Below the pieces are notes generated by a model. It saw only the letters and a list, made by a program, of their open reading frames with translations. It made no database searches and was not told where the DNA came from. A program made the translations under genes and the position numbers. A DNA stretch of 64,000 nucleotides from a virus. Shown piece after piece: positions 21,256-32,465 of the stretch. Positions within the stretch are counted from its first letter, which is position 1. Each line of letters opens with the position of its first letter. The stretch spans positions 64,001 to 128,000 of IMG/VR virus record IMGVR_UViG_3300036790_000419; one strand, 5' to 3'.

Positions 21256-21438
21256 GTGTTCGGCTGGCTGTCCTCGCTGTTCTTCGCCATCGCGTTCATC
21301 CTGTACGCGGCCAAGGCCGGCACCTCGCTGCCCTGGACCCCGGAGGGCTTCACGATCCTCGGCCTGCTGTGCCTGGCCCTGCACGTGGCGTTCTGGTGGT
21401 ACCCGGTCGGCCGCCGCCCCGGGCCGCCGGTCGCGTGA
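21256..21438 (+). CDS. 60-aa two-TM membrane protein (holin candidate)
   Basis: Two hydrophobic segments, basic C-terminus. Confidence 0.65.
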   Translation: MFGWLSSLFFAIAFILYAAKAGTSLPWTPEGFTILGLLCLALHVAFWWYPVGRRPGPPVA

Positions 21439-23402
21439 CCGCCGCCGGCGCGGCTGCCGCGGCCCTGCTCGGGTCGTCCGGCGGCGCGGGCACGTCCGCT
21501 ACCGGGCCCGGCATCTTCGAGGAGGAGCCGGTCCCGCTTGACGTCTTCGTCCGGGACCGGGCCTACCTGGCCAACCCGCCGCTGAGCGAGGTCCAGTACG
21601 AGGCGGTCCGGCACGCTGAGCGGGTCTACTACCTGCCGACCTACGAGCTGCTGGCGGCCAGCGCCGACAAGGAGGTGAGGAACTACTGGTCGCAGCCGAC
21701 GCGCATGGTCAACTTCCTGGAGCTGGAGTGGGGGAAGGGCGGGGGCAAGGACCACACCTGCCGGATGATCGCCATGCGGGTCTGCTACCTGCTGCTGTGC
21801 CTGAAGTCCCCGCAGGATTACTACCAGATGCCCGAGCAGGATTCGATTCACGTCCTGAATGTCGCATCATCTTCGAAGCAGGCCCAGCGCGCGTTCTTCG
21901 CCCCCATGCGCCGCGCGGTGCAGCGGCCGGGCTGCTGGTTCCAGCGCAAGGCCGGCATCGACATCATCGACGCCGCCGCCCGCCAGCAGCGCGGCGCCCG
22001 CGGGGAGCGCACCGTCACGCTGCTGGACACCATCCGGTTCGAGCACAACATCGAGGCTGTCTCCGGCCACTCCGACGCCGACAGCCAGGAGGGGCTCAAC
22101 CTCATCCTCGGCATCGCCGACGAGATCGACGCGTTCCGCTCGGCCGCGGAGCTGGCTCGCAACGCCTCGGCCAAGCAGCGCGAGTCGTCCTCCTCGGCCG
22201 AGGCGATCCTCGACATGATCCGGACCAGTGCCACCACCCGGTTCCCGGAGACCTTCAAGAACGTGCACATCTCCTACCCGCGCTACCTGGGCAGCACCAT
22301 CCAGCAACTGGTCGCCAAGGGCAAGGCTGACAACGAGGCGCGCGGTGAGCGGAGCCGCTACTACGTGTCCGGCCCGCTGGCTACCTGGGAGGCCAATCCC
22401 CGCATCAGCGGGAAAGAGGCGTTCGCGGAGGACTACGAGAAGGACCCGGCGCTGGCCGAGGCGAAGTACGAGTGCAAGCCGCGCCGCGCGATTAACCCGT
22501 ACTTCGCCAACGAGGAGGCCATCCGCGACTGCCTGGTGGAGTACGCCCAGCCGCCGGTGAGCGTGGCCTACGTGCGCGAGGGCGCGACCTGGAGGCCGCT
22601 CTACACCTTCAGCCCCGGGTTCTTCCCGGTCAAGGGTGCCTTGTACGCCATGCACGCTGACCTGGCGGCCACCGGCGACCGGGCCGGCGTGACGATGGCG
22701 CACGTCAAGCGCTGGCAGGACCACGCCCTTGTCGGCTACGACGAGGAAGGCCTGGAGATCAAGGTCCAGGAGCGCCGCCCGGTGGTGAAAGCCGACTTCA
22801 CCATCAGCTACGAGGCGGACGCCGGCGCGAGGCCGCCGATGGAGATCCAGATTCGCTGGGCGAGGATGTTGTGCCTTGAGCTGCGCCGGATGGGATTTCC
22901 GGTAGTTTTCTTCTCATTCGATCAGTGGCAGTCAAAAGACTCCATGCAGATCCTGGAATCGCACGGAATAGAGACTGACCGGTTCTCCACCGACGTGTCC
23001 GAGGAGGGCTGGCGGACGCTGCGGGACGTCATGTACGAGGGCCGCCTGGAGATGCCCGCGCGCGAGCTGACCGTCATCGAGCTGCTCGGGCTGTCGCGGC
23101 TGCCGAACGGCAAGATCGACCACCTGGGTGACAGCTCCAAGGACGAGGCCGACTCCCTGGCCGGCGCGGTTTCCGGCGCGCTGAGGACCGGCGGCCAGGA
23201 GGACGCGAGCGGCAAGCGCGCCTACCCCGGCCAGGCCTCGTTCTACGGCCCGGCCGCTGAGATCCCCTCCCCGGCTGGAATGCCCGCGGCGATGTCAGTG
23301 CTCGGCCCGGATAACTTCATGCCGGCGGACCGCCCCGGCATGGAGTACGGCAGCAGCTACCTGGACGACTGGGGCTCGGCCAGCGGGGACTACCAGCAGT
23401 AA
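21435..23402 (+). CDS. terL: Terminase large subunit
   Basis: WGKGGGKD Walker A, IADEID Walker B, HADLA, SFDQWQS, KIDH...KDEADS. Confidence 0.9.
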   Translation: MTAAGAAAAALLGSSGGAGTSATGPGIFEEEPVPLDVFVRDRAYLANPPLSEVQYEAVRHAERVYYLPTYELLAASADKEVRNYWSQPTRMVNFLELEWGKGGGKDHTCRMIAMRVCYLLLCLKSPQDYYQMPEQDSIHVLNVASSSKQAQRAFFAPMRRAVQRPGCWFQRKAGIDIIDAAARQQRGARGERTVTLLDTIRFEHNIEAVSGHSDADSQEGLNLILGIADEIDAFRSAAELARNASAKQRESSSSAEAILDMIRTSATTRFPETFKNVHISYPRYLGSTIQQLVAKGKADNEARGERSRYYVSGPLATWEANPRISGKEAFAEDYEKDPALAEAKYECKPRRAINPYFANEEAIRDCLVEYAQPPVSVAYVREGATWRPLYTFSPGFFPVKGALYAMHADLAATGDRAGVTMAHVKRWQDHALVGYDEEGLEIKVQERRPVVKADFTISYEADAGARPPMEIQIRWARMLCLELRRMGFPVVFFSFDQWQSKDSMQILESHGIETDRFSTDVSEEGWRTLRDVMYEGRLEMPARELTVIELLGLSRLPNGKIDHLGDSSKDEADSLAGAVSGALRTGGQEDASGKRAYPGQASFYGPAAEIPSPAGMPAAMSVLGPDNFMPADRPGMEYGSSYLDDWGSASGDYQQ

Positions 23403-24357: not shown

Positions 24358-24430
24358 AGGGACGTAGTTCAGCGGCCAGAACGGCAGCTTCCAACACTGC
24401 GCGCCGGGGGTTCGAGTCCTCCCGTCCCTG
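24358..24430 (+). tRNA. tRNA-Trp(CCA)
   Basis: Cloverleaf, loop ttCCAac, C31:A39, G73. Confidence 0.8.
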
Positions 24431-24728
24431 CGACCGTCAGCAACGGCGAGAGCCCGCGCAGGCGCATGTCAATGCAGCTTGAGAACTCCACAGCGTGAGC
24501 ATCAGCGGCGGGCGCCATCCCGTCGCACATGACTGGCAGCCGGGTGCGCTCACACCGTGCCCGGCTGCCGATCAACGCCCGGTTCACGGCATGCCGTGAC
24601 GATGGGCAAGCACCGTGCCGTCCGCCGGCCTCCGGGCTCGCGTTCCACCGTAGGGGTGTGCGGCCTGGCTCCGGCCAGGTGGCGGCGGTACTTGGTGTCA
24701 AGAGTTTTTGCACGATATGCAAAGCAAT

Positions 24729-24801
24729 GGGGCCTTAGCTCAGCTGGTAGAGCATCTGCTCGGCAGACAGAAGGTCGGGGGTTCGATCCCCCCAGGCTCC
24801 A
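24729..24801 (+). tRNA. tRNA-Ala(GGC)
   Basis: G3:U70, loop tcGGCag (C33), C31:A39. Confidence 0.85.
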
Positions 24802-24803
24802 CA

Positions 24804-24874
24804 GCGGCGGGTTGCCGGTTCGAATCCGGTCCGGTCCACGCATGGGCTGGTAGCTCAAATGGACAGAGTGTCGC
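24804..24874 (+). ncRNA. Circularly permuted tRNA-like element (YrlA-like)
   Basis: T arm, then loop-closed acceptor helix, then D arm. Confidence 0.75.
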
Positions 24875-24878
24875 ATCT

Positions 24879-24951
24879 GGGGACGTAGCTCAGCTGGTAG
24901 AGCAGCCGCCTCGCAAGCGGCGTGTCGCGGGTTCGATTCCCGCCTTCTCCA
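24879..24951 (+). tRNA. tRNA-Ala(CGC)
   Basis: G3:U70, loop ctCGCaa. Confidence 0.9.
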
Positions 24952-25107
24952 CTTAGGGCACTACTGCCGCGCGTCGGCCGGCGCAAGGCGAGAGAGGGCA
25001 GCTGACCTCTCTGGTGCCTTACCGTTCACCCGTGCGGTAAAACCGGGGACCAGCGGAGCCGAATGTCCGGGGCACCGGGCTGAGGGTGGGGTAAGCCTCC
25101 GCAACAT

Positions 25108-25185
25108 CGGGGTGTGGCGCAGCTTGGCTAGCGCGCTACGTTCGGGACGTAGAGGTCGTGAGTTCAAATCTCACCACTCCGACCA
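25108..25185 (+). tRNA. tRNA-Pro(CGG)
   Basis: Loop ttCGGga, CCA encoded. Confidence 0.92.
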
Positions 25186-25245
25186 GGATCTCAATGGCTC
25201 AAGTGAGGCGGCAGTAAAGGGCCACGCCCTGCCGGAGATCCGTAA

Positions 25246-25317
25246 CGGGATGTAGTTCAGTGGAAGAGCGCCTGGTTTGGGACCAGGATGTCGCGGGTTC
25301 GAGCCCTGCCATCCCGA
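25246..25317 (+). tRNA. tRNA-Pro(TGG)
   Basis: Loop ttTGGga. Confidence 0.92.
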
Positions 25318-25319
25318 CT

Positions 25320-25390
25320 GCTGGTCAGAGCCGCGTGGCGTGCGGGCCCTTAGCGGGGCACTCAGGGTTCGAGTCCCTGCCTGGTCAGCC
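25320..25390 (+). ncRNA. Degenerate tRNA-like element with shrunken anticodon arm
   Basis: Long terminal helix gctggtcag/ctggtcagc, intact T arm caggg-ttcgagt-ccctg. Confidence 0.5.
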
Positions 25391-25466
25391 GCTCCGGTAA
25401 TAGGGACGCCAGCAGCGGACGCGCGCTGGCGGTCGGTGAAACCCCGTTGCGAATCCGGAGCACCCT

Positions 25467-25539
25467 GGGGCCTTAGCTCAGATGGCAGAGCGCCCGGTTG
25501 AAACCCGGAAGGTCGGAGTCTCGGAATCTCCAGGTCCCG
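25467..25539 (+). tRNA. tRNA-Phe(GAA), aberrant T loop
   Basis: Loop ttGAAac, C27:A43, T loop tctcggaat. Confidence 0.7.
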
Positions 25540-25553
25540 CGCAGTAACACAAT

Positions 25554-25626
25554 GGGGATGTGGCCGAACGGTTACAGGCACTTGCCTTCCAAGCAAGCTA
25601 CGCGGGTTCGACCCCCGTCATCCCCT
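25554..25626 (+). tRNA. tRNA-Gly(TCC)
   Basis: Loop ctTCCaa, U73. Confidence 0.9.
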
Positions 25627-25754
25627 CTGGTACGGGCCGGACTCATACTCCGGTTGCGTGCAAGTAACCGGTCCGCGGCTGTCGGGCTGCGGACCGGGAG
25701 CGCCTGGGCTGCCCGGAGGGGCCGACACCCTCTCCGGGGGCACCAGTACTCAAT

Positions 25755-25826
25755 GCGCCGCGAGCATGTACGGCTATGCAGCGGACTCTTAATCCACGGA
25801 ACGGGGTTCAAGTCCCTGGCGGCGCA
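25755..25826 (+). tRNA. tRNA-Lys(CTT)
   Basis: Loop ctCTTaa, C28:A42. Confidence 0.85.
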
Positions 25827-25870
25827 CTTCACCTGGCTTCGCCGATTTTCGGCAGAGTTCGGTGTTATTC

Positions 25871-25945
25871 GGGCGAGTAGAGCAACCTGGCAGACCCTCC
25901 GCTCCCAAAAAGCGGGATGTGCGGGTTCGAATCCCGCCTCGCCCA
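25871..25945 (+). tRNA. tRNA with CAA anticodon (Leu), short variable loop
   Basis: Loop ccCAAaa (C33), no variable arm. Confidence 0.7.
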
Positions 25946-26049
25946 CGCCGGCTGGCAAGGCCGTCCTGCGAATCCTTGCCCGGCCTCTCCTGTGGGGAGA
26001 GCAAAGGCCGTTACAGGAGGGGGAGAAAAGGCCCCTCCCGTCAATTCAG

Positions 26050-26122
26050 TGGGGTATGGCGCAATTGGCAGCGCAGGTGCGTCTGGTGCACAAGGTTCTA
26101 GGTTCGAGTCCTGGTACCCCAG
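26050..26122 (+). tRNA. tRNA-Gln(CTG)
   Basis: U1-A72, loop gtCTGgt. Confidence 0.88.
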
Positions 26123-26125
26123 CGA

Positions 26126-26198
26126 GCTGGAGAATGCGGGTTCGAATCCTGCCCGGCGAGAGAGATCTCGCCGGTGGCTTAATCGGCAAAGCGCCAGC
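26126..26198 (+). ncRNA. Circularly permuted tRNA-like element (YrlA-like)
   Basis: T arm, acceptor helix closed by GAGA tetraloop, D arm, gctgg/ccagc closing stem. Confidence 0.8.
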
Positions 26199-26234
26199 AA
26201 CCCCGGGCACGGACGGTATCCCGGCCCGGGGCCC

Positions 26235-26308
26235 GCCCTTGTAGCTCATCTGGCAAGAGCGCCCGCCCCGTAAGCGGAAGGTCCCGCGTTCGACTCGCGG
26301 CAAGGGCT
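26235..26308 (+). tRNA. tRNA-Thr(CGT)
   Basis: Loop ccCGTaa (C33), C27:A43. Confidence 0.85.
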
Positions 26309-26419
26309 CGTAGTGTCCCGCCGAAGGCGTCACAGGCCCTCATGCCGGCTCCGTTCCAGGTGCCGTGCGGGGTTCGAGTTCTGCTCGTTTCTCCCTCGAT
26401 CGCGCGTCGCGATCATTAT

Positions 26420-26493
26420 GCCCGGATAGCTCAGACGGCGAGAGCGTATCCCCGGTACGGATGAGGCCCCGAGTTCGATTCTCGGTCCGGGCT
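26420..26493 (+). tRNA. tRNA-Thr(GGT)
   Basis: Loop ccGGTac (C33). Confidence 0.85.
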
Positions 26494-26504
26494 CGCAAGT
26501 TCAC

Positions 26505-26578
26505 GCGGATGTAGCTCAGTTGGTTAGAGCGTGACGTTGCCAACGTCAAGGTCGCCGGTTCGAGTCCGGTTATCCGCT
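26505..26578 (+). tRNA. tRNA-Gly(GCC)
   Basis: Loop ttGCCaa. Confidence 0.93.
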
Positions 26579-26579
26579 C

Positions 26580-26662
26580 GGGTGAGTGGCGTAATGGCAG
26601 CCGCGCACGGTTCAGGCCCGTGTGTCCGCAAGGACGTGAGGGTTCAAGTCCCTCCTCGCCTA
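26580..26662 (+). tRNA. tRNA-Leu(CAG)
   Basis: Loop ttCAGgc, variable arm. Confidence 0.92.
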
Positions 26663-26772
26663 CTTCGAGGTTGTCCACCGTGGCCGCGGGCCGCTGCGCC
26701 TGCCGTGCGAGAGCACGGGTTCCAGGACGGCGGTTAGTTTCCCTGCTAGCGGGAGCGAACGGTGACCTACAC

Positions 26773-26856
26773 GGACGCGTGGCTCAGTGGCTACAGCAGC
26801 GCCCTGCTAAGGCGTACAGGGGTAACCCTGCGGAGGTTCGAGTCCTCCCGCGTCCG
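26773..26856 (+). tRNA. tRNA-Ser(GCT)
   Basis: Loop ctGCTaa, variable arm. Confidence 0.92.
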
Positions 26857-26941
26857 CTTCTGCGCCGGATACCAGCCGAGTCCGTCAGGTGGTGACGCAG
26901 GCGCAGTGCCCGTGGGGGACGGCAACCCGCGACGGGCGCCC

Positions 26942-27029
26942 GGAAGCGTAAGTCGAGCCGGCCTACCGACAGCGGTCCCGAAAACCGTGAGGGGTAACTC
27001 CCGTGTGGGTTCGAGTCCCACCGCTTCCT
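26942..27029 (+). tRNA. tRNA-Ser(CGA)
   Basis: Loop ccCGAaa (C33), variable arm. Confidence 0.85.
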
Positions 27030-27196
27030 CCGCACATGATTGAGGCGGCACCCACGGGCCGCTTGCGGGTACCGCCTCAATGTGTAATCAGCCAGGCTGG
27101 TGATCCAGTCCAGAAGGAAGGAACCACGTGCCTTTACGAGCAGCCTAGTTTACTGCTCGCGTTCGCAAGCATACGCACAGTCACAGTGATTGTCGA

Positions 27197-27273
27197 GGGC
27201 GGGTAGCTCAGCAGGTTGGAGCACTTCCCTGATAAGGAAGAGGCCGCTGGTTCGATCCCAGCCTCGCCCACCA
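27197..27273 (+). tRNA. tRNA-Ile(GAT)
   Basis: Loop ctGATaa, CCA encoded. Confidence 0.93.
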
Positions 27274-27274
27274 C

Positions 27275-27349
27275 GGCGGTATAGCTCAGCCGGTGAGAGC
27301 GCCCCGCTCATAACGGGAGAGGCCGGGGGTTCGAGCCCCTCTACCGCTA
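27275..27349 (+). tRNA. tRNA-Met/Ile2(CAT)
   Basis: Loop ctCATaa, C27:A43. Confidence 0.85.
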
Positions 27350-27350
27350 C

Positions 27351-27424
27351 GGGCCGCTAGCTCAACTGCGCAGAGCGGCTGACCTTTAATCAGCGGGTTC
27401 GGGGTTCGAGTCCCCGGCGGCCCA
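27351..27424 (+). tRNA. tRNA-Lys(TTT)
   Basis: Loop ccTTTaa (C33). Confidence 0.88.
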
Positions 27425-27432
27425 CTAGCCTG

Positions 27433-27588
27433 GTGCGCGTGAGGAACCTCGCGCTCCGGGCAGCTGAGCGCCTGCACGTCATCTTCGACGCCGTCCCGGT
27501 TTACGAGGACGAGCGGTGGTACAGGTACGGAGACTGGGGCTGCCGGGCGTCCAACTGGGTGCGCCGGCAGCGGAACAAGCGCCGGTAG
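27433..27588 (+). CDS. 51-aa protein inside the tRNA array
   Basis: Coding-like codons; stop overlaps 5' end of tRNA-Arg(TCT). Confidence 0.4.
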   Translation: MRVRNLALRAAERLHVIFDAVPVYEDERWYRYGDWGCRASNWVRRQRNKRR

Positions 27589-27655
27589 CTCAGTCGGACA
27601 GAGCAGGCGGCTTCTAACCGCCAGGCCGCGGGTTCGAGCCCCGCCTGGCGCACCA
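27579..27655 (+). tRNA. tRNA-Arg(TCT)
   Basis: Loop ctTCTaa, CCA encoded. Confidence 0.93.
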
Positions 27656-27658
27656 CAC

Positions 27659-27731
27659 GGTCCTGTCGTCTAGCGGCCCAGGATGCCTGATTCTCGATCA
27701 GGTCGCGCGAGTTCGAATCTCGCCAGGACCA
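27659..27731 (+). tRNA. tRNA-Glu(CTC)
   Basis: Loop ttCTCga. Confidence 0.9.
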
Positions 27732-27825
27732 CGCAGAGCCTGCTACGCGGGAGACGGCCATTGCCAAAGCAGGTACTCTGAGGTCCGCGCCGGGAGCTGG
27801 CTGAAATCCGCTCGGCAGGACGCAA

Positions 27826-27899
27826 GCCCCTCTCGACTAGCGGTCCAGGTCGCCTGCCTTTCAAGCAGGATGACACCGGTTCGAATCCGGTGGGGGGAA
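27826..27899 (+). tRNA. tRNA-Glu(TTC)
   Basis: Loop ctTTCaa, G1:A72 mismatch. Confidence 0.85.
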
Positions 27900-27930
27900 C
27901 GAGGGCCTCCGGGGTAACCTGGGGGCGCGA

Positions 27931-28008
27931 CGCGGAGTAGGGGAGTTCGGTTGTCCCCGCGGCGCTTTCATAACGCCGAGATCGCGGGTCCGAATCCCGC
28001 CTCCGCCA
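27931..28008 (+). tRNA. Initiator-like tRNA-Met(CAT) with 9-nt anticodon loop
   Basis: C1:C72 mismatch, loop ctttCATaa, T loop TCCGAAT. Confidence 0.7.
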
Positions 28009-28099
28009 CGAGGCCCGGCACTGGCGGCCGGCGAAAGCCCCGGGGAATACGTGGCTGGCCCTGCTGGATAAGGGCTAAACAGCCGGGGGCCTCAGTCGA

Positions 28100-28172
28100 T
28101 CCGGCGTAGCTCAATCGGCAGAGCAGCGTCCCGTTAAGGCGAGGGTTCCCAGTTCGAGTCTGGGCGCCGGAG
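28100..28172 (+). tRNA. tRNA-Asn(GTT)
   Basis: Loop ccGTTaa (C33). Confidence 0.87.
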
Positions 28173-28277
28173 CGCGTCAGTCTGGGATACGAGGGGCAGC
28201 AGCCCTGCCGCGGCCCGCGCGGCGGTCGCCGAAGCGGGACGAGTGCCGGGGCTCCCCAGTCAGCCGCCGGCACACAT

Positions 28278-28353
28278 GGTCTTGTAGGGGAGCCTGGCCG
28301 TCCCCGCCGCCCCGTCAAGGCGAAGATCGCGGGTTCGAATCCCGCCAGGACCG
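28278..28353 (+). tRNA. tRNA-Asp(GTC)
   Basis: Loop ccGTCaa (C33), C27:A43. Confidence 0.87.
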
Positions 28354-28377
28354 CTTTCTCACCCGGGGCCGGGGCGT

Positions 28378-28512
28378 TTAGACACCGGAGCGCTTGCGCC
28401 GCTCGCCCAGCTCGGTCCGCCCGAGCCGGTACAGGGCGCGGTAGCCGCCGAGCCTCAGCCCGATCCAGATGCCGGAGCCGAAGGCGATGACCAGGAGGAT
28501 GAAAATGCCCAC
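28378..28512 (-). CDS. 44-aa single-TM membrane protein (not in ORF track)
   Basis: MGIFILLVIAFGSGIWIGLRLGGYRALY...; own promoter. Confidence 0.65.
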   Translation of the reverse strand: MGIFILLVIAFGSGIWIGLRLGGYRALYRLGRTELGERRKRSGV

Positions 28513-28520
28513 GTGATTAA

Positions 28521-28549
28521 ACGGTACCTGGTTCTTTACCAGTGTCTAG
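28521..28549 (-). promoter_or_regulatory. sigA-type promoter with operator
   Basis: TAGACA-16-TACCGT on minus strand; CTAGAC-actg-GTAAAG 28534-28549. Confidence 0.6.
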
Positions 28550-28554
28550 GCACT

Positions 28555-28629
28555 GCCCCTGTAGCTCAACGGGAGAGCGCCGTCTCGACAAGGCGGAGGG
28601 AGGTGGTCCGACACCACCTAGGGGCACCA
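28555..28629 (+). tRNA. tRNA-Val(GAC)
   Basis: Loop tcGACaa (C33), T loop TCCGACA, CCA encoded. Confidence 0.82.
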
Positions 28630-28630
28630 T

Positions 28631-28704
28631 GCACTAGTAGCTCAGCGGACAAGAGCAGCGGCCTACGGAGCCGCGTGGCGGGGGTTCGAGTCCCTCCTAG
28701 TGCA
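28631..28704 (+). tRNA. tRNA-Arg(ACG)
   Basis: Loop ctACGga. Confidence 0.92.
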
Positions 28705-28715
28705 CGCGAGTACAA

Positions 28716-28787
28716 GGGCGCATAGCTCAGCGGAAGAGCGCTCGGTTCACACCCGAGAGGCCGGCGGTTCGATCCCTTCTGCGCCCA
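28716..28787 (+). tRNA. tRNA-Val(CAC)
   Basis: Loop ttCACac. Confidence 0.88.
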
Positions 28788-28788
28788 C

Positions 28789-28863
28789 GGTCGGTATAGC
28801 TCAACGGCAGAGCGCTGGACTGTGGCTCCAGACATACGAGTTCGATTCTCGTTACCAACCCCA
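28789..28863 (+). tRNA. tRNA-His(GTG)
   Basis: G-1/C73, loop ctGTGgc, C3:A70, CCA encoded. Confidence 0.9.
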
Positions 28864-28864
28864 T

Positions 28865-28948
28865 GGCGGAGTGACCCGAGATGGCAAGGGGGCCGGCTGT
28901 AAACCGGCTGCGCGAGCATGGCAGGTTCGAGCCCTGCGTCCGTCACCA
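28865..28948 (+). tRNA. tRNA-Tyr(GTA)
   Basis: Loop ctGTAaa, variable arm, CCA encoded. Confidence 0.9.
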
Positions 28949-28949
28949 A

Positions 28950-29023
28950 GGTCTCATAGCTCAGTGGAACAGAGCACCCGCCTCCGGAGCGGGGGGCCGG
29001 CGGTTCGAGTCCGTCTGAGACCA
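28950..29023 (+). tRNA. tRNA-Arg(CCG)
   Basis: Loop ctCCGga. Confidence 0.92.
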
Positions 29024-29111
29024 CGACTGAGTTCACCGCCGTGACCTGGCAGCGGGTAGCGGTGGGCCAGTAAAGCGGGGCGTGCTGCCGGCTACGCCTG
29101 CCCCGTCCAAT

Positions 29112-29187
29112 GGCGGTATGGCCGAGTGGTACAGGCGCACGCCTGCAAAACGTGCTTACCCGGGTCCGATTCCCGGTGCCGCCTCCA
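29112..29187 (+). tRNA. tRNA-Cys(GCA)
   Basis: Loop ctGCAaa, C31:A39, T loop TCCGATT, U73, CCA encoded. Confidence 0.87.
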
Positions 29188-29188
29188 G

Positions 29189-29261
29189 GACCCTGTAGCT
29201 CAGCGGACAGAGCTGCTTCCCCCTAAGGAGCGAGTCGCTGGTTCGAGTCCAGCCAGGGCCG
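29189..29261 (+). tRNA. tRNA-Arg(CCT)
   Basis: Loop ccCCTaa (C33), A2:C71. Confidence 0.85.
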
Positions 29262-29394
29262 CCTTCGGTGCTCACGCTGTGGCAGCCTGGAGACGGGAGA
29301 CCGGGTACGGGCTCGGCTTCGCGGGTCTGAGATCGTTTCCGGTCTCCCGTCACACCAGGGTACATGCACATCACTGCGTTACGCTGGCCCTATT

Positions 29395-29431
29395 ACTCCC
29401 TGTTGTCCTCTTGAGGCTGACAGGGGTTTTT
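29395..29431 (+). terminator. Intrinsic terminator ending the tRNA array
   Basis: ccctgttg...tgacagggg plus T-run. Confidence 0.65.
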
Positions 29432-29542
29432 GCGTTCCGGTCACGTTTTGAGGGAAACAGTTCCGCCGGCCGGCGGGGTGCGACATAGTGGACTGTTTCC
29501 CCGTGACAAGCACAGGGGGCCTATGAGTGAGGGGTTTTACCT

Positions 29543-30478
29543 ATGAAGCTCAGCAGGCGGCTTGCTGCCGTCATTGCGGTACCTGCCCTGGCGCTGGGGA
29601 CCGGGCTGGCCGCGGCCGGCACCGCGCACGCCGCGCCAGGTGTCACCCAGCCCGCTGTGACCGACACCTGGGGTTTCGCCGGCGACGAGGCCGCGGCTAA
29701 CTCCGGGACCAATTTCACCCACTTCTCCGCCCTGGTCGGCGCGGGCACGCAGTACAGCGCGGCCAACCCGGCGCTGCCGTCTGTCGGCAGCGTGCTGAAC
29801 GGCGCGGGCTCCGCCTGGCACCCGGTACCGCTGAGCGGCTCGCTGGGCAGGGCGCTGGCCTCGGTTGAGGCTGCGGGCCTGCAGTTCGGCGCGCACGGCA
29901 GCGAGACCGCCTCGCTGGGCGTGCTGCGGGCTGGCAGCCGCAATGACGTGGTGGCCGTCATCACCGGCCACGGCAGCCTTTCCTACGCGGTGCTGGCCTC
30001 CTACCCGGTGGCGGACACCGTCGGCCTGGACCTGCTGCACGACGGCAGATCGGCCTACACGTTCCGTGGCCGGCACATCCAGGCTGGCGCGGTGGCGTTC
30101 AGCACCGAGGACGTCCGCGCCGGCATCAGCTCGGTGAAGACGATCGACAGCTCGCACGTCAGCGGCGGCGTCATCAGCGGCGGCTTCCACACCGCCCTGG
30201 GCGGCATCCTGTCCGGTGCCCGCGCGGCGCAGGGCGGCGTCAGCGCGTTCGCCTCTGACCCGGTGCCCGACACCGCCGGCGGCATCGTGGTCCGGCTGGC
30301 GCACCTGCACCTGGACGCCAACGCCACCGCGGGCGAGACCTTCTCCGAGGGCTTCCAGTCCGGCGCGGCCTGGGCGGTCATCCCGTACGCGGCCTCGGTG
30401 AGCAACCGCACCGTCGCGGAGTCCACCGTCTTCGCCTCCGACCACATCTCGGTCGCGGAGCTGAGCACGCAGCACTAG
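29543..30478 (+). CDS. Secreted protein of unknown function
   Basis: Signal peptide MKLSRRLAAV...AHA; SD gagggg. Confidence 0.75.
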   Translation: MKLSRRLAAVIAVPALALGTGLAAAGTAHAAPGVTQPAVTDTWGFAGDEAAANSGTNFTHFSALVGAGTQYSAANPALPSVGSVLNGAGSAWHPVPLSGSLGRALASVEAAGLQFGAHGSETASLGVLRAGSRNDVVAVITGHGSLSYAVLASYPVADTVGLDLLHDGRSAYTFRGRHIQAGAVAFSTEDVRAGISSVKTIDSSHVSGGVISGGFHTALGGILSGARAAQGGVSAFASDPVPDTAGGIVVRLAHLHLDANATAGETFSEGFQSGAAWAVIPYAASVSNRTVAESTVFASDHISVAELSTQH

Positions 30479-30493
30479 CCAGCCCTGTCTCAC

Positions 30494-30531
30494 GCGGGCA
30501 GCCCCGGGCGACGTCGCCCGGGGCTGCCTGT
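30494..30531 (+). terminator. GC hairpin / terminator
   Basis: gggcagccccgggcga/tcgcccggggctgcct. Confidence 0.6.
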
Positions 30532-30550
30532 GCTTCCCGATTAACCGGGC

Positions 30551-30850
30551 ATGCACCTCACGGGAATGTGGCACGAGTTCATGGCCGCCGCCGGCAATGC
30601 CCCGGGCGCGCAGAAGGGTGACGTCATCGTCACCCTGATGGACCCGGTCGGCGGGGTCGGCGAGGTCACGGTCCCCAGCAGTGACGTGACCATCGCGGCC
30701 GAGGCCGGCAACCTGATCGGCGTGCAGCTCAAGATGCCGGACGGGCGCCGCCTGTTCGTGTCCGCAGCCAACCTGGCCGGCATGATCGACGCGCCGCGCG
30801 AGGAGGCCCGGGAGGACAAGCCGGCCCGGGCGCGGCAGCCTGGCAGGTAG
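30551..30850 (+). CDS. Hypothetical late protein
   Basis: CCGATTA(30537)-N7-ATG. Confidence 0.7.
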   Translation: MHLTGMWHEFMAAAGNAPGAQKGDVIVTLMDPVGGVGEVTVPSSDVTIAAEAGNLIGVQLKMPDGRRLFVSAANLAGMIDAPREEAREDKPARARQPGR

Positions 30851-30866
30851 CCCCGATTAAGGGGGC

Positions 30867-32465
30867 ATGACTACACCGGGCGGCGGGCAGGGCTCCTACA
30901 GCTCCAGCGTGCAGCCGCCTGGTGGCCTCGGGGTTAGCAGTCAGGGCTACGGCCAGGAGGGCTACGTCCTGCAGGACGAGCAGACGCTTGTCCAGCCGCC
31001 CGACGAAGCTCTCAATTTTGCCACCGGCGTCCCGTACTTCCTCCCCTTCGCCACCCCGTACCGGGACTCGTGGGAGGTCTTCCGCGACGACCCGGTCAGC
31101 ATCCGCCAGCTGGTCACCATGCGCCGCCGCGACGGCCAGGCCAGGGCGCTGTACCGGCTGCTGACCAAGCCGCTGCTGAGCGCGATGAAGAACGCCGACG
31201 TGGTGCCCGCCGACGGGGTGACCGGCGGGGTGGAGGAGGCCCGGTTCTGCAAGGACCTGCTGTTCGCGCCGCGGGCGCAGGGCGGCATGTCTCAGTCGTT
31301 TGACAAATTCGTCAAGCAGATGCTGCTCGCGCTGTTCAACGGGTTCAGCGCCTGGGAGATGGTCTACTGGGTCCCCAAGACCGGGCCGAACAAGGGCAAG
31401 TGGACGCTGCGCAAGATGGACTGGCGCCCTTCGGAGACCCTCACCTTCCTGCTTGACGGCCAGGGCGAGTTCAACGGCTTCCGGCAGCGCACGTTCTTCC
31501 AGGGCCGGACGATCGACGTCAAGATCGCGAAAGAGACCGCGCTGTACTACGCGCACGAGGAAGCCGAGCGGCCGTTCTACGGCGTGTCCATGTTCGAGAG
31601 CGCCTTCTACCACTACGACAAGAAGGAGAAGCTCTACTACATCGCTCACCTGGCGGCGCAGCGGGCCGCGGTGGGCCTGCGGGTGGGCACGATGGTGCCG
31701 AATGCCCCGGCTGAGGACAAGAACAACTTCATCCGGGCGCTGGCCCAGCTCGGGCTCGCGCAGTACATCGCGCTGCCCACCGCCGACTGGACGGTGCAGA
31801 CCCTCAACGAGTCAGCCAGCCGGTTCGACTTCCTGGGGCTGATCAACCACCACAACAGCCAGATGTCCAAGAGCGTTCTCGCCCAGTGGTTCGACAACGA
31901 GCAGGGAGGCGGCCAGGGGGACAGCACGCTGGTCGACTTCGGCAAGCAGGACGACGTCACCTACTTCCTGATGCTGGAGGGCATCCTGGAGGAGATGGCC
32001 GGGATCATCACCGACCACATCTTCCCGCGCTTCGTCGACTGGAACTTCGGCTCCGGCAAGTACCCGCAGTTCAAGTGGGGCCCGCTGACCGAGGAGGCCA
32101 AGGCCGCCATCCAGGACACGTTCGACAAGCTGGCCACCGCCGGCCAGCAGGCCAACGTCACGCCGGAGTTCATGCTCGACCTGGAGCAGCGGATGGCCGT
32201 CGACTTCGGGTTCGACATCGACTACGACAAGATCAAGGCGGACCGCGAGAAGCAGCAGAAGCAGATGGCCGCCCAGCAGAAGCAGATGGCCGCCCAGGCC
32301 CAGCAGCAGGCGCAGAACCCGGTCCAGGCCGGGAAGGGCGGGTCCCCCCAGCAGCCGGTGGTGCACATCAAGGTCCCGGTCGGCTCCCAGACTTCCGCCA
32401 CCGGCACGTCGGCCTCCGGCGGCAGCGCGGTCGGCCAGCGCAGCGGGAACGGGCTAGACAGGTGA
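30867..32465 (+). CDS. Portal protein (DUF935/Mu gp29-like)
   Basis: ALFNGFSAWE, PFYGVSM..AF, SKSVLAQ, V.WNFG...P; CCGATTA(30853)-N7-ATG. Confidence 0.88.
   Translation: MTTPGGGQGSYSSSVQPPGGLGVSSQGYGQEGYVLQDEQTLVQPPDEALNFATGVPYFLPFATPYRDSWEVFRDDPVSIRQLVTMRRRDGQARALYRLLTKPLLSAMKNADVVPADGVTGGVEEARFCKDLLFAPRAQGGMSQSFDKFVKQMLLALFNGFSAWEMVYWVPKTGPNKGKWTLRKMDWRPSETLTFLLDGQGEFNGFRQRTFFQGRTIDVKIAKETALYYAHEEAERPFYGVSMFESAFYHYDKKEKLYYIAHLAAQRAAVGLRVGTMVPNAPAEDKNNFIRALAQLGLAQYIALPTADWTVQTLNESASRFDFLGLINHHNSQMSKSVLAQWFDNEQGGGQGDSTLVDFGKQDDVTYFLMLEGILEEMAGIITDHIFPRFVDWNFGSGKYPQFKWGPLTEEAKAAIQDTFDKLATAGQQANVTPEFMLDLEQRMAVDFGFDIDYDKIKADREKQQKQMAAQQKQMAAQAQQQAQNPVQAGKGGSPQQPVVHIKVPVGSQTSATGTSASGGSAVGQRSGNGLDR

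What the first reader, a model, noticed from the sequence alone, without database searches (positions are those of the whole stretch)
24804..24874. Circularly permuted, anticodon-less tRNA mimic 1 between two tRNA-Ala genes
Seen in order: gcggc, variable loop, T arm gccgg-TTCGAAT-ccggt, acceptor 3' strand ccggtcca, cgca loop, acceptor 5' strand tgggctgg, TA, D arm gctc-aaatGGaca-gagt, gtcgc pairing back to gcggc. The acceptor end is sealed and the anticodon loop is open. Only 2-4 nt separate it from the flanking tRNAs. Established: bacterial YrlA Y RNAs have this T-acceptor-D order but with a long Ro60-binding stem, absent here; permuted tRNA genes are known in algae and archaea. Inference: a minimal tRNA-elbow decoy or a permuted tRNA precursor.
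Basis: partly seen in the sequence, partly recalled or inferred. Interest (0 to 1): 0.85.

Follow-up and report, generated by a model that had tools for sequence, protein, structure and literature searches.

The report
Handle-less phage tRNA mimic RNA
Between two alanine tRNA genes, this soil actinobacterial phage encodes a real, conserved 71-base RNA that is a tRNA written back to front, with no anticodon loop: it is the tRNA-like half of a known Y RNA (YrlA) but lacks the Ro60-binding half and the Ro60 gene, so it is probably a free tRNA look-alike, not a tRNA.

Summary
Window 24804-24874 folds as a circularly permuted cloverleaf, 2 nt after tRNA-Ala(GGC) and 4 nt before tRNA-Ala(CGC).

It is not chance. 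A strict descriptor finds two such elements in the window and none in 100 shuffles. Eight related modules keep 96% of pairs, and 10 of 22 pairs show changes on both sides.

Its core is sequence-homologous to Ro60-linked phage Y RNAs of the YrlA type, with 90.6% identity over 53 nt to an unannotated RNA of Streptomyces phage BRock. It still fails YrlA membership:
- 30 bits against a cut-off of 69;
- no room for a Ro60-binding handle;
- no handle motif and no TROVE/Ro60 gene in the 98%-complete phage.

One clade relative does carry Ro60 plus four handle-bearing Y RNAs just after its tRNA array. Its Ala-Ala module is handle-less too.

Best reading: a stand-alone tRNA-body mimic released by RNase Z and RNase P. 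RNase P possibly reopens it, as it does M. smegmatis YrlA. The binding target is unknown.

A permuted tRNA precursor is very unlikely. The alanine identity set (G3:U70, A73) is real but not conserved across the family.

This scan has already noted sealed permuted tRNA mimics on other DNA (293 notes, at least 257 genomes), including the sibling at 26126-26198.

The parts
24729..24801 (+). tRNA-Ala(GGC), upstream neighbour. 3' processing after its discriminator A24801 would set the 5' end of the mimic.
   Evidence: ARAGORN; Rfam tRNA 58.9 bits; no encoded CCA
24802..24803 (+). 2-nt spacer (CA)
24804..24808 (+). 3' strand of the anticodon-stem equivalent; pairs with 24870-24874
   Evidence: helix 1
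24809..24813 (+). variable-loop equivalent. Its last base, U48, can form the Levitt pair with A15.
   Evidence: 15:48 tabulated and by hand
24814..24830 (+). T arm: 5-bp stem and 7-nt loop TTCGAAT
24831..24838 (+). acceptor 3' strand (positions 66-72) plus A73
24839..24843 (+). closing loop CGCA (its first base is C74) and U(-1), which can pair with A73. By analogy with M. smegmatis YrlA, RNase P would cut after 24843.
   Evidence: precedent PMC4201824; the cleavage itself is inferred
24844..24850 (+). acceptor 5' strand (positions 1-7): G1-C72, G2-C71, G3:U70, C4-G69, U5:G68, G6-C67, G7-C66
24851..24852 (+). U8 and A9 equivalents
24853..24869 (+). D arm: 4-bp stem and 9-nt loop with A14, A15, G18, G19 and A21 equivalents
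24870..24874 (+). 5' strand of the anticodon-stem equivalent. The open end lies where the anticodon loop would be.
24875..24878 (+). 4-nt spacer. It is the leader that RNase P removes from the next tRNA and would be left on the mimic's 3' end.
   Evidence: similar 4-nt spacers ending in a pyrimidine in L006, L007 and L037
24879..24951 (+). tRNA-Ala(CGC), downstream neighbour
   Evidence: ARAGORN; Rfam 64.3 bits
26126..26198 (+). sibling module ('mimic 2') after tRNA-Gln: same architecture, 9-bp acceptor helix capped by a GAGA tetraloop

Best explanation
Window 24804-24874 is a genuine small-RNA gene. It is a stand-alone tRNA-like module of the YrlA (bacterial and phage Y RNA) type.

How it most likely works:
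1. It is transcribed as part of the 33-tRNA operon (inferred).
2. It is cut free by the enzymes that mature its neighbours: RNase Z or other 3' processing after A24801, and RNase P before G24879. The product is an RNA of about 77 nt (inferred).
3. It folds into a tRNA-shaped body with T loop, D loop, elbow and a 12-bp acceptor/T helix (supported here by covariation and conserved tertiary nucleotides).
4. It has no anticodon loop, no Ro60-binding handle and no Ro60 partner gene (shown here). It cannot decode and cannot tether Ro60.
5. It most likely works as a tRNA-body look-alike that occupies proteins which recognise tRNA shape. Candidates are tRNA processing or modification enzymes, or a tRNA-directed host toxin or defence protein (inferred; the target is unknown).
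6. Its acceptor helix is exactly 7 bp with U(-1), G1, A73 and C74. RNase P may therefore open the closing loop and CCA may be added, as shown for M. smegmatis YrlA (about even odds).
For: Structure and chance:
- Every stem was verified.
- The descriptor gives 2 hits in the real window and 0 in 100 shuffles.

Conservation:
- My covariance model R1 separates true modules (37-93 bits) from tandem-tRNA false positives (33 bits or less).
- On 8 modules, 95.9% of cells are paired and 10 of 22 pairs change on both sides. No shuffle out of 500 reaches this. Slid controls give 31-48% paired.
- RNAalifold on a plain MAFFT alignment recovers the T arm, closed acceptor hairpin and D arm without my model.
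- Against L006 and L037, the window copy carries two compensatory double changes: T-stem pair 3, and acceptor pair 1-72.
- Tertiary nucleotides U8, A14, G18, G19 and T54-A58 are present. The 15:48 pair is A:U or G:C in 12 of 17 modules, and all three G15 go with C48 (plus hand parsing).

Homology to YrlA:
- Rfam YrlA aligns to the tRNA-like module only.
- A pattern taken from the core retrieved 5 viral contigs. Four carry a TROVE/Ro60 ORF within about 1 kb of the RNA.
- The best DNA matches among isolates are Streptomyces phages BRock, Kenrey and Francob. In BRock and Kenrey the RNA is unannotated, inside a tRNA cluster and just upstream of a Ro-like protein gene.

Stand-alone status:
- Only 2 and 4 nt separate it from the neighbouring tRNAs.
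- The handle motif is absent from the window.
- No TROVE match by Pfam or with two phage Ro60 proteins as queries.
- None in four relatives, three of them 97-100% complete.
- Relative G010 has Ro60 and four handle-bearing Y-RNA units. Its Ala-Ala module still has no handle.

Independent gene:
- A third module elsewhere in this genome has its own promoter-like site and no tRNA neighbours.

Co-transcription:
- No promoter-like or terminator-like site lies between tRNA-Trp and the mimic.

RNase P precedent: PMC4201824.
Against:
- The folding energy is not better than shuffles.
- The Rfam YrlA score of 30 bits is in the range of tandem-tRNA false positives, 26-28 bits. Rfam alone proves nothing.
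- The Ala-Ala slot is not kept across the clade. Some relatives hold a long-armed version, some another compact type, some unrelated RNA. Any function is therefore accessory.
- No binding partner was identified.
- The decoy role is inferred from shape only.
Confidence: 0.6

Rival explanations
1. A two-piece, anticodon-less alanine acceptor. RNase P (after 24843) and RNase Z or exonucleases (after A73 or C74) remove the closing loop. CCA is added. AlaRS then charges the nicked molecule, because it carries G1-C72, G2-C71, G3:U70 and A73. The Ala-charged mimic would act off the decoding path, for example as a tmRNA-like or AlaRS-titrating molecule.
For: - The acceptor is exactly 7 bp with U(-1), G1, A73 and C74.
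- Among the 33 tRNAs of the array, G3:U70 occurs only in the two tRNA-Ala.
- The Ro60-linked BRock relative has the same acceptor, with a loop of the same length differing at one base.
- M. smegmatis YrlA is cut by RNase P and gains CCA in vivo, and its authors raise possible aminoacylation (PMC4201824).
- AlaRS charges minihelices through G3:U70 (established knowledge, not tested here).
Against: - G3:U70 is not kept in the family. With 3:70 left free, 12 YrlA-like modules show C:G five times, A:U twice, G:U twice, and U:A, U:G and U:U once each.
- In the same slot, L037 has A3-U70, and L003 and L007 have C3-G70.
- The de-permuted mimic is no closer to tRNA-Ala than to Lys, Gly or Arg tRNAs.
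- Sibling modules are sealed by 8-9 bp helices with GNRA caps.
- No cleavage, CCA or charging data exist.
Confidence: 0.12
2. A cis-acting element of the tRNA operon. The tRNA-shaped spacer recruits or paces RNase P and RNase Z, or insulates the folding of the two similar tRNA-Ala precursors. It has no role once released.
For: - It sits 2 and 4 nt from its neighbours.
- It lies between two similar tRNA-Ala genes in a densely packed array.
- The slot almost always holds some structured RNA.
Against: - Relatives fill the same slot with unrelated RNAs of 135-440 nt (L008, L009). No particular shape is therefore needed for processing.
- The same kind of module occurs outside arrays with its own promoter-like site, and at L004:20249-20318.
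- Close sequence relatives are trans-acting Y RNAs.
Confidence: 0.12
3. An evolutionary relic without function: a leftover of a Y RNA that lost its handle, or of a tandem tRNA duplication, drifting neutrally.
For: - Slot content turns over across the clade, and only this phage has this compact version.
- The phage lacks Ro60, while one relative has it.
Against: - All 22 pairs of the four helices are intact and the tertiary nucleotides are kept.
- The window copy differs from L006 and L037 by two compensatory double substitutions.
- Three such modules persist in one genome.
- The family shows covariation.
Confidence: 0.1
4. A Y RNA after all: it works with the host's Ro60 (Rsr) despite lacking the usual handle.
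For: - The core is homologous to Ro60-linked YrlA RNAs.
- M. smegmatis, an actinobacterium, encodes Rsr (PMC4201824).
Against: - No handle motif and no room for one.
- In G010, which has its own Ro60 and four handle-bearing units, the Ala-Ala module is still handle-less.
- The host is unknown.
Confidence: 0.04
5. A circularly permuted tRNA gene. Its ends are ligated to create an anticodon loop, and its acceptor loop is then excised, giving a working tRNA, as in Cyanidioschyzon merolae.
For: The order of the halves is that of permuted tRNA genes.
Against: - The processed ends offer 2 + 4 = 6 nt, not a 7-nt loop.
- Those nucleotides differ among relatives.
- No RtcB or Rnl2-type ligase in the phage.
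- Both alanine isoacceptors are already present next door.
- Homologues are Y RNAs.
Confidence: 0.02

Closest known systems
YrlA, the tRNA-like Y RNA bound by Ro60/Rsr in bacteria and actinophages (Rfam RF02553; Chen et al. 2014, PMC4201824)
   Same: - Same permuted order: stem, variable loop, T arm, loop-closed acceptor helix, D arm, stem.
- Same conserved T-loop and D-loop nucleotides.
- Sequence-level similarity to Ro60-linked phage copies.
- A 7-bp acceptor, like the M. smegmatis form that RNase P opens.
   Different: - No Ro60-binding handle and no space for one.
- No Ro60 gene in the phage.
- Embedded 2-4 nt from tRNAs, so its ends are set by tRNA processing.
- Scores 30 bits against a gathering score of 69.
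Unannotated YrlA-type RNAs of Streptomyces phages BRock, Kenrey and Francob
   Same: - BRock: 90.6% identity over 53 nt.
- BRock has the same acceptor hairpin, including G3:U70, A73 and U(-1), and a loop of the same length differing at one base.
- BRock and Kenrey copies also lie in a tRNA cluster.
   Different: In BRock and Kenrey the RNA lies just upstream of a Ro-like RNA-binding protein gene. BRock's RNA is enclosed by an outer stem.
Circularly permuted tRNA genes of Cyanidioschyzon merolae and other algae or archaea (own knowledge)
   Same: The 3' half precedes the 5' half, and the acceptor ends are joined by a short intervening sequence.
   Different: Here there is no anticodon loop to restore, no ligase is encoded, and the homologues are Y RNAs.
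tRNA-like domain of tmRNA, including two-piece permuted tmRNA (Rfam RF00023, RF01851, RF04321)
   Same: T arm followed by an acceptor helix with G3:U70. In permuted tmRNA genes the acceptor strands are joined by an excised loop.
   Different: Only 8-14 bits, no mRNA-like tag region, and a full D stem is present.
Phage T4 species 1 and 2 RNAs (RNAC, RNAD) of the T4 tRNA cluster
   Same: Small stable non-tRNA RNAs encoded inside a phage tRNA operon and released by tRNA processing enzymes. Their function is still unknown.
   Different: I know of no sequence or architectural relationship. This was not tested here.

Membership tests
YrlA (Rfam RF02553) | tRNA-like module in the order T arm, loop-closed acceptor helix, D arm, bracketed by a stem | tested here: met
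   cmscan aligns 24799-24880 to model positions 17-92 with all helices; MFE fold; covariation
YrlA (Rfam RF02553) | score at or above the curated gathering threshold (69 bits) | tested here: not met
   30 bits. Tandem tRNAs in related loci reach 26-28 bits. The Ro60-linked relatives L064-L067 do not reach 69 bits either.
YrlA (Rfam RF02553) | Ro60-binding handle: a stem formed by the 5' and 3' ends with the conserved GNCGAA-type motif | tested here: not met
   Model positions 1-16 and 93-114 are unmatched. Only 2 and 4 nt separate it from the neighbouring tRNAs. The handle motif of clade relative G010 is absent from the window.
YrlA (Rfam RF02553) | encoded next to a Ro60/Rsr (TROVE) gene; Chen et al. 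accepted candidates within 4 kb | tested here: not met
   No TROVE match in the 98%-complete genome at E up to 1. None with two phage Ro60 proteins as queries. tblastn with G010's Ro60 finds nothing in the window.
YrlA (Rfam RF02553) | physical binding to Ro60, and TruB/DusA modification of the T and D loops | not testable with these tools
   Needs immunoprecipitation and modification mapping.
Functional tRNA (RF00005) | contiguous cloverleaf with a 7-nt anticodon loop and a free 3' acceptor end | tested here: not met
   Not called by ARAGORN or the Rfam tRNA model. There is no anticodon loop, and the acceptor ends are joined by a loop.
Circularly permuted tRNA gene | the ends can be joined to restore a 7-nt anticodon loop, and a ligation pathway is available | tested here: not met
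   Only 6 nt are available and they differ among relatives. No RtcB or Rnl2-type ligase in the phage. A host ligase was not testable.
tmRNA (one-piece or permuted) | tRNA-like domain plus a tag-encoding mRNA-like domain | tested here: not met
   8-14 bits against cut-offs of 47-70. ARAGORN finds no tmRNA.
Alanine-accepting RNA (AlaRS substrate) | G3:U70 with A73 in a 7-bp acceptor helix, and a free CCA 3' end | tested here: inconclusive
   G1-C72, G2-C71, G3:U70, A73 and C74 are present. A free end would need RNase P and CCA addition, which are untested. The identity set is not conserved in the family.

The most novel reading that the evidence does not exclude
The mimic is opened by RNase P and RNase Z, receives CCA, and is charged by AlaRS. 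That would make it a phage-made, anticodon-less, two-piece alanine acceptor. It would share an origin with the BRock-type Y RNA and act off the decoding path, for example by entering stalled ribosomes like a tag-less tmRNA, or by feeding or titrating an Ala-tRNA-dependent enzyme.
Probability: 0.1. Interest if true: 0.85.

Novelty: new variant of a known kind. Interest (0 to 1): 0.55.

Why it matters
Y RNAs of the YrlA type have been defined by their Ro60 partner. [quoted passage not shown]

This element shows that the tRNA-like half also exists alone. It sits inside a phage tRNA operon, in a phage without Ro60, and is maintained by compensatory changes. That separates the function of the tRNA-like module from Ro60, so its unknown role can be tested on a 71-nt RNA.

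It also adds a class of non-tRNA cargo to phage tRNA arrays. Such arrays are currently discussed as a counter to tRNA-targeting host defences (PMC10264068 and PMC11555353, seen).

The compact copy, its long-armed relatives and the Ro60-bearing relative G010 form a natural comparison series.

Tried and rejected
- **Folding energy as evidence.** z = -0.68, so it is not informative. I replaced it with a descriptor-based null.
- **Rfam score as evidence of membership.** The score is at the level of tandem-tRNA false positives.
- **Recent origin from the neighbouring tRNA-Ala genes.** The de-permuted halves are no closer to tRNA-Ala than to the Lys, Gly or Arg tRNAs.
- **Direction of change in the acceptor arm.** I first read the compact form as a deletion derivative of the long-armed relatives. 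The Ro60-linked outgroups (BRock and others) have the same compact hairpin, so the compact state is more likely ancestral and the arm an insertion. This is not resolved.
- **The arm motif as a wider family.** Most of its 35 IMG/VR matches lack a tRNA-like context and recur as a few repeated contexts. Only 6 sit in tRNA-like modules: the L003, L006, L007 and L037 contigs plus two new ones, L088 and L100.
- **Fetching M. smegmatis YrlA by primer words from the paper.** The first word found nothing. The second hit an unrelated MAG with no YrlA. No supplements are held for the paper.
- **Megablast of the array against isolated phages.** No match. The nearest isolate by portal protein, Microbacterium phage Magritte, has no array between terminase and portal.
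- **Phage CCA-adding enzyme or Rnl2-type ligase.** None found.
- **The 108-aa minus-strand ORF 24550-24876**. It runs across tRNA-Ala(GGC) and the mimic. I judged it a high-GC artefact and did not test it further.

Full report
**1. The observation**

The window is part of a 148.9-kb, 98%-complete, high-GC viral record. It holds 33 tRNA genes in one array at 24358-29263. The array lies between the large terminase (21369-23402) and the portal gene (30867-32465).

The order is:
- a 5-nt strand;
- a 5-nt variable loop;
- a T arm with loop TTCGAAT;
- a 7-bp acceptor helix whose strands are joined by A73, the loop CGCA and U(-1);
- U8 and A9;
- a 4-bp D arm with GG in its loop;
- a 5-nt strand that pairs back to the first.

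The unconstrained minimum-free-energy fold is this structure. Two nt separate it from the discriminator of tRNA-Ala(GGC). Four nt separate it from the first base of tRNA-Ala(CGC).

**2. More than chance?**

Energy alone says nothing (z = -0.68). I therefore wrote a strict descriptor for the permuted cloverleaf. It finds two elements in the window, this one and 26126-26198. It finds none on the other strand and none in 100 dinucleotide shuffles. It also finds none in 20 shuffles when any 7-nt T loop is allowed.

**3. Relatives**

The terminase protein retrieved eight related viral loci and a few usable metagenome contigs. All of these that extend into the array show the same Trp, Ala(GGC), Ala(CGC), Pro order. 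The Ala-Ala slot holds one of the following:
- the same kind of module with the acceptor helix prolonged by a 55-75-nt arm (L003, L006, L007, L037). L088 and L100 carry the same long-armed module, but their slot was not fully established;
- a second compact permuted type (L004/L005, L045, L050), which has a compensatory A-U to G-C change in its closing stem;
- unrelated RNA (L008, L009).

A covariance model built from the two window copies scores true modules at 37-93 bits and tandem-tRNA artefacts at 33 bits or less. On the eight best modules:
- 95.9% of cells pair;
- 10 of 22 pairs change on both sides;
- no shuffle out of 500 reaches the observed values;
- sliding the partners drops pairing to 31-48%.

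That alignment is fitted to the model. As an independent check, RNAalifold on a plain MAFFT alignment also returns the T arm, closed acceptor hairpin and D arm.

Against L006 and L037, the window copy has two compensatory double substitutions: T-stem pair 3, and acceptor pair 1-72. The tRNA tertiary nucleotides are present. The 15:48 pair is A:U or G:C in 12 of 17 modules (and hand parsing).

I conclude that this is a structured RNA under selection.

**4. What it is**

Rfam's YrlA model aligns to it over positions 17-92 of 114, which is the tRNA-like module. The score is 30 bits against a cut-off of 69. Tandem tRNAs reach 26-28 bits, so that score is only a lead.

The stronger evidence is homology. 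A pattern taken from the T loop, acceptor base and D arm hit five viral contigs. Four of them carry a TROVE/Ro60 ORF within about 1 kb of the RNA.

Among isolated phages the best DNA matches are three Streptomyces phages:
- BRock, 90.6% over 53 nt;
- Kenrey and Francob, 82.7% each.

In BRock and Kenrey the RNA is unannotated. It sits in a tRNA cluster just upstream of a gene annotated 'RNA-binding protein' or 'Ro-like RNA binding protein'. BRock's acceptor hairpin matches the window's in stem, G3:U70, A73 and U(-1). Its loop has the same length and differs at one base.

**5. Why it is not a YrlA member**

- There is no room for the Ro60-binding handle.
- The handle motif seen in a clade relative is absent from the window.
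- The phage has no TROVE gene by Pfam or by two phage Ro60 queries.
- Four relatives, three of them 97-100% complete, have none either.

One relative is instructive. G010 encodes Ro60 directly after its tRNA array and before the portal gene. The gene is preceded by four tandem handle-bearing Y-RNA units. G010's Ala-Ala module nevertheless has no handle.

Handle-less modules are therefore a class of their own. They are not Y RNAs that happen to have lost a partner.

The window's genome also carries a third module far from the array. It has its own promoter-like site and no tRNA neighbours. This fits independent RNA genes.

**6. How it probably works**

Shown here:
- the architecture;
- its conservation;
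- its homology to YrlA;
- the absence of handle, Ro60, RtcB, Rnl2-type ligase and CCA-adding enzyme in the phage.

Inferred:
- Co-transcription with the array. No promoter-like or terminator-like site lies between tRNA-Trp and the mimic.
- Release by 3' processing of tRNA-Ala(GGC), which encodes no CCA, and by RNase P at tRNA-Ala(CGC).
- Folding into a tRNA-shaped body.
- Action as a look-alike for proteins that read tRNA shape.

The slot's cassette-like turnover suggests an accessory role, possibly in a host-phage conflict. Phage tRNA sets are themselves proposed to counter tRNA-targeting defences (PMC10264068 and PMC11555353). No target can be named from sequence.

**7. Sealed or opened?**

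M. smegmatis YrlA has a 7-bp acceptor helix. It is cut by RNase P at the tRNA-like site and gains CA to complete CCA in vivo. Salmonella YrlA is not cut (PMC4201824).

Mimic 1 has 7 bp, U(-1), G1, A73 and C74. C follows the discriminator in 31 of the 33 tRNAs of the array. I therefore give roughly even odds that the loop is opened.

Sibling modules with 8-9-bp helices and GNRA caps look built to stay closed.

**8. The alanine signal**

G1-C72, G2-C71, G3:U70 and A73 match the alanine identity set. In the array, only the two tRNA-Ala share G3:U70.

With the 3:70 pair left free, 12 YrlA-like modules show mostly C:G and other pairs. The same slot in relatives has A-U or C-G at that position. The de-permuted mimic is not specially close to tRNA-Ala.

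I treat the signal as a trait of the window and BRock lineage. It keeps a charged, anticodon-less alanine acceptor possible, at about 10%, but does not make it likely.

**9. Rejected or unlikely readings**

- A permuted tRNA precursor: only 6 nt for the loop, no ligase, and the homologues are Y RNAs.
- tmRNA: 8-14 bits and no tag region.
- A neutral relic: the helices are intact, there are compensatory changes, and three copies persist in one genome.
- A purely cis-acting processing element: other relatives fill the slot with unrelated RNA, and modules also exist outside arrays.

**10. Novelty and score**

This is a new variant of a known kind: the YrlA tRNA-like module as a free-standing, tRNA-operon-embedded RNA without Ro60. 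I found no paper describing this. The original YrlA survey discarded hits overlapping annotated tandem tRNA genes and reported only those within 4 kb of Ro60.

Within this scan the kind has been noted often. There are 293 notes in at least 257 genomes. They include a follow-up on the sibling at 26126-26198 that reached the same reading.

Interest 0.55.

Noticed in passing
window 26126-26198: Second permuted tRNA-like module after tRNA-Gln(CTG): 9-bp acceptor helix capped by a GAGA tetraloop. Syntenic copies follow tRNA-Gln in L007:15249-15326 and L003:11012-11088.
   Followed up: partly
own genome outside the window, G000:C1:11913-11988 (L114:1501-1576): Third permuted tRNA-like module (38 bits with my model) with no tRNA nearby. 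A sigma-70-like promoter match (10 of 12) ends 11 nt upstream. It resembles the module between the two tRNA-Pro genes of L004 (13394-13468).
   Followed up: partly
L003:9557-9673, L006:13269-13397, L007:13217-13352, L037:501-618 (-), L088 about 1200-1330, L100 about 830-990: In relatives the acceptor helix of the module is prolonged by a 55-75-nt arm. Its tip carries a conserved AGUA / GAA internal loop around a 3-bp stem, which looks like a loop-E or sarcin-ricin-type motif. Among the viral-contig matches to the pattern, only those in this tRNA-like context look meaningful.
   Followed up: partly
L111:4581-6236 (-) and L111:6290-6790 (-) (relative G010): One clade relative encodes a 551-aa TROVE/Ro60 protein between the tRNA array and the portal gene. 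It is preceded by four tandem Y-RNA-like units that share a handle but carry different inserts; one insert is tRNA-like (YrlA, 23.9 bits). The window has an unrelated 1.6-kb stretch at the same place (29264-30866).
   Followed up: partly
L004:13084-13161, L045:7263-7340, L050:6998-7075: A second, unrelated-looking compact permuted tRNA-like type fills the Ala-Ala slot in other relatives: 7-bp closing stem, 6-bp T stem, 7-bp acceptor hairpin. It shows compensatory changes among the three.
   Followed up: partly
L115 (Streptomyces phage BRock, KX925554.1 about 103449-103501) and L116 (Kenrey, OQ995430.1 about 68307-68358): Isolated Streptomyces phages carry unannotated YrlA-type RNAs inside their tRNA clusters, just upstream of Ro-like RNA-binding protein genes.
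   Followed up: partly
window 25321-25388: tRNA-like remnant or odd tRNA mimic between tRNA-Pro(TGG) and tRNA-Phe. It has a good T arm and an 8-nt word at both ends that can pair with itself through two G-U pairs. ARAGORN does not call it, and Rfam gives only a weak mascRNA-like match (21.9 bits).
   Followed up: no
window 26367-26393: A T-arm-like hairpin followed by a T-rich run is the only terminator-like site inside the array, between tRNA-Thr(CGT) and tRNA-Thr(GGT).
   Followed up: no
window 27931-28009: ARAGORN calls a tRNA with anticodon TCA, which would read UGA; Rfam tRNA gives 43 bits. Relatives have a tRNA-Met(CAT) between tRNA-Glu(TTC) and tRNA-Asn.
   Followed up: no
window 24358-29263: 31 of 33 tRNA genes have C directly after the discriminator, but only 7 encode the full CCA. 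Most must therefore be completed by the host CCA-adding enzyme; the phage encodes none.
   Followed up: partly
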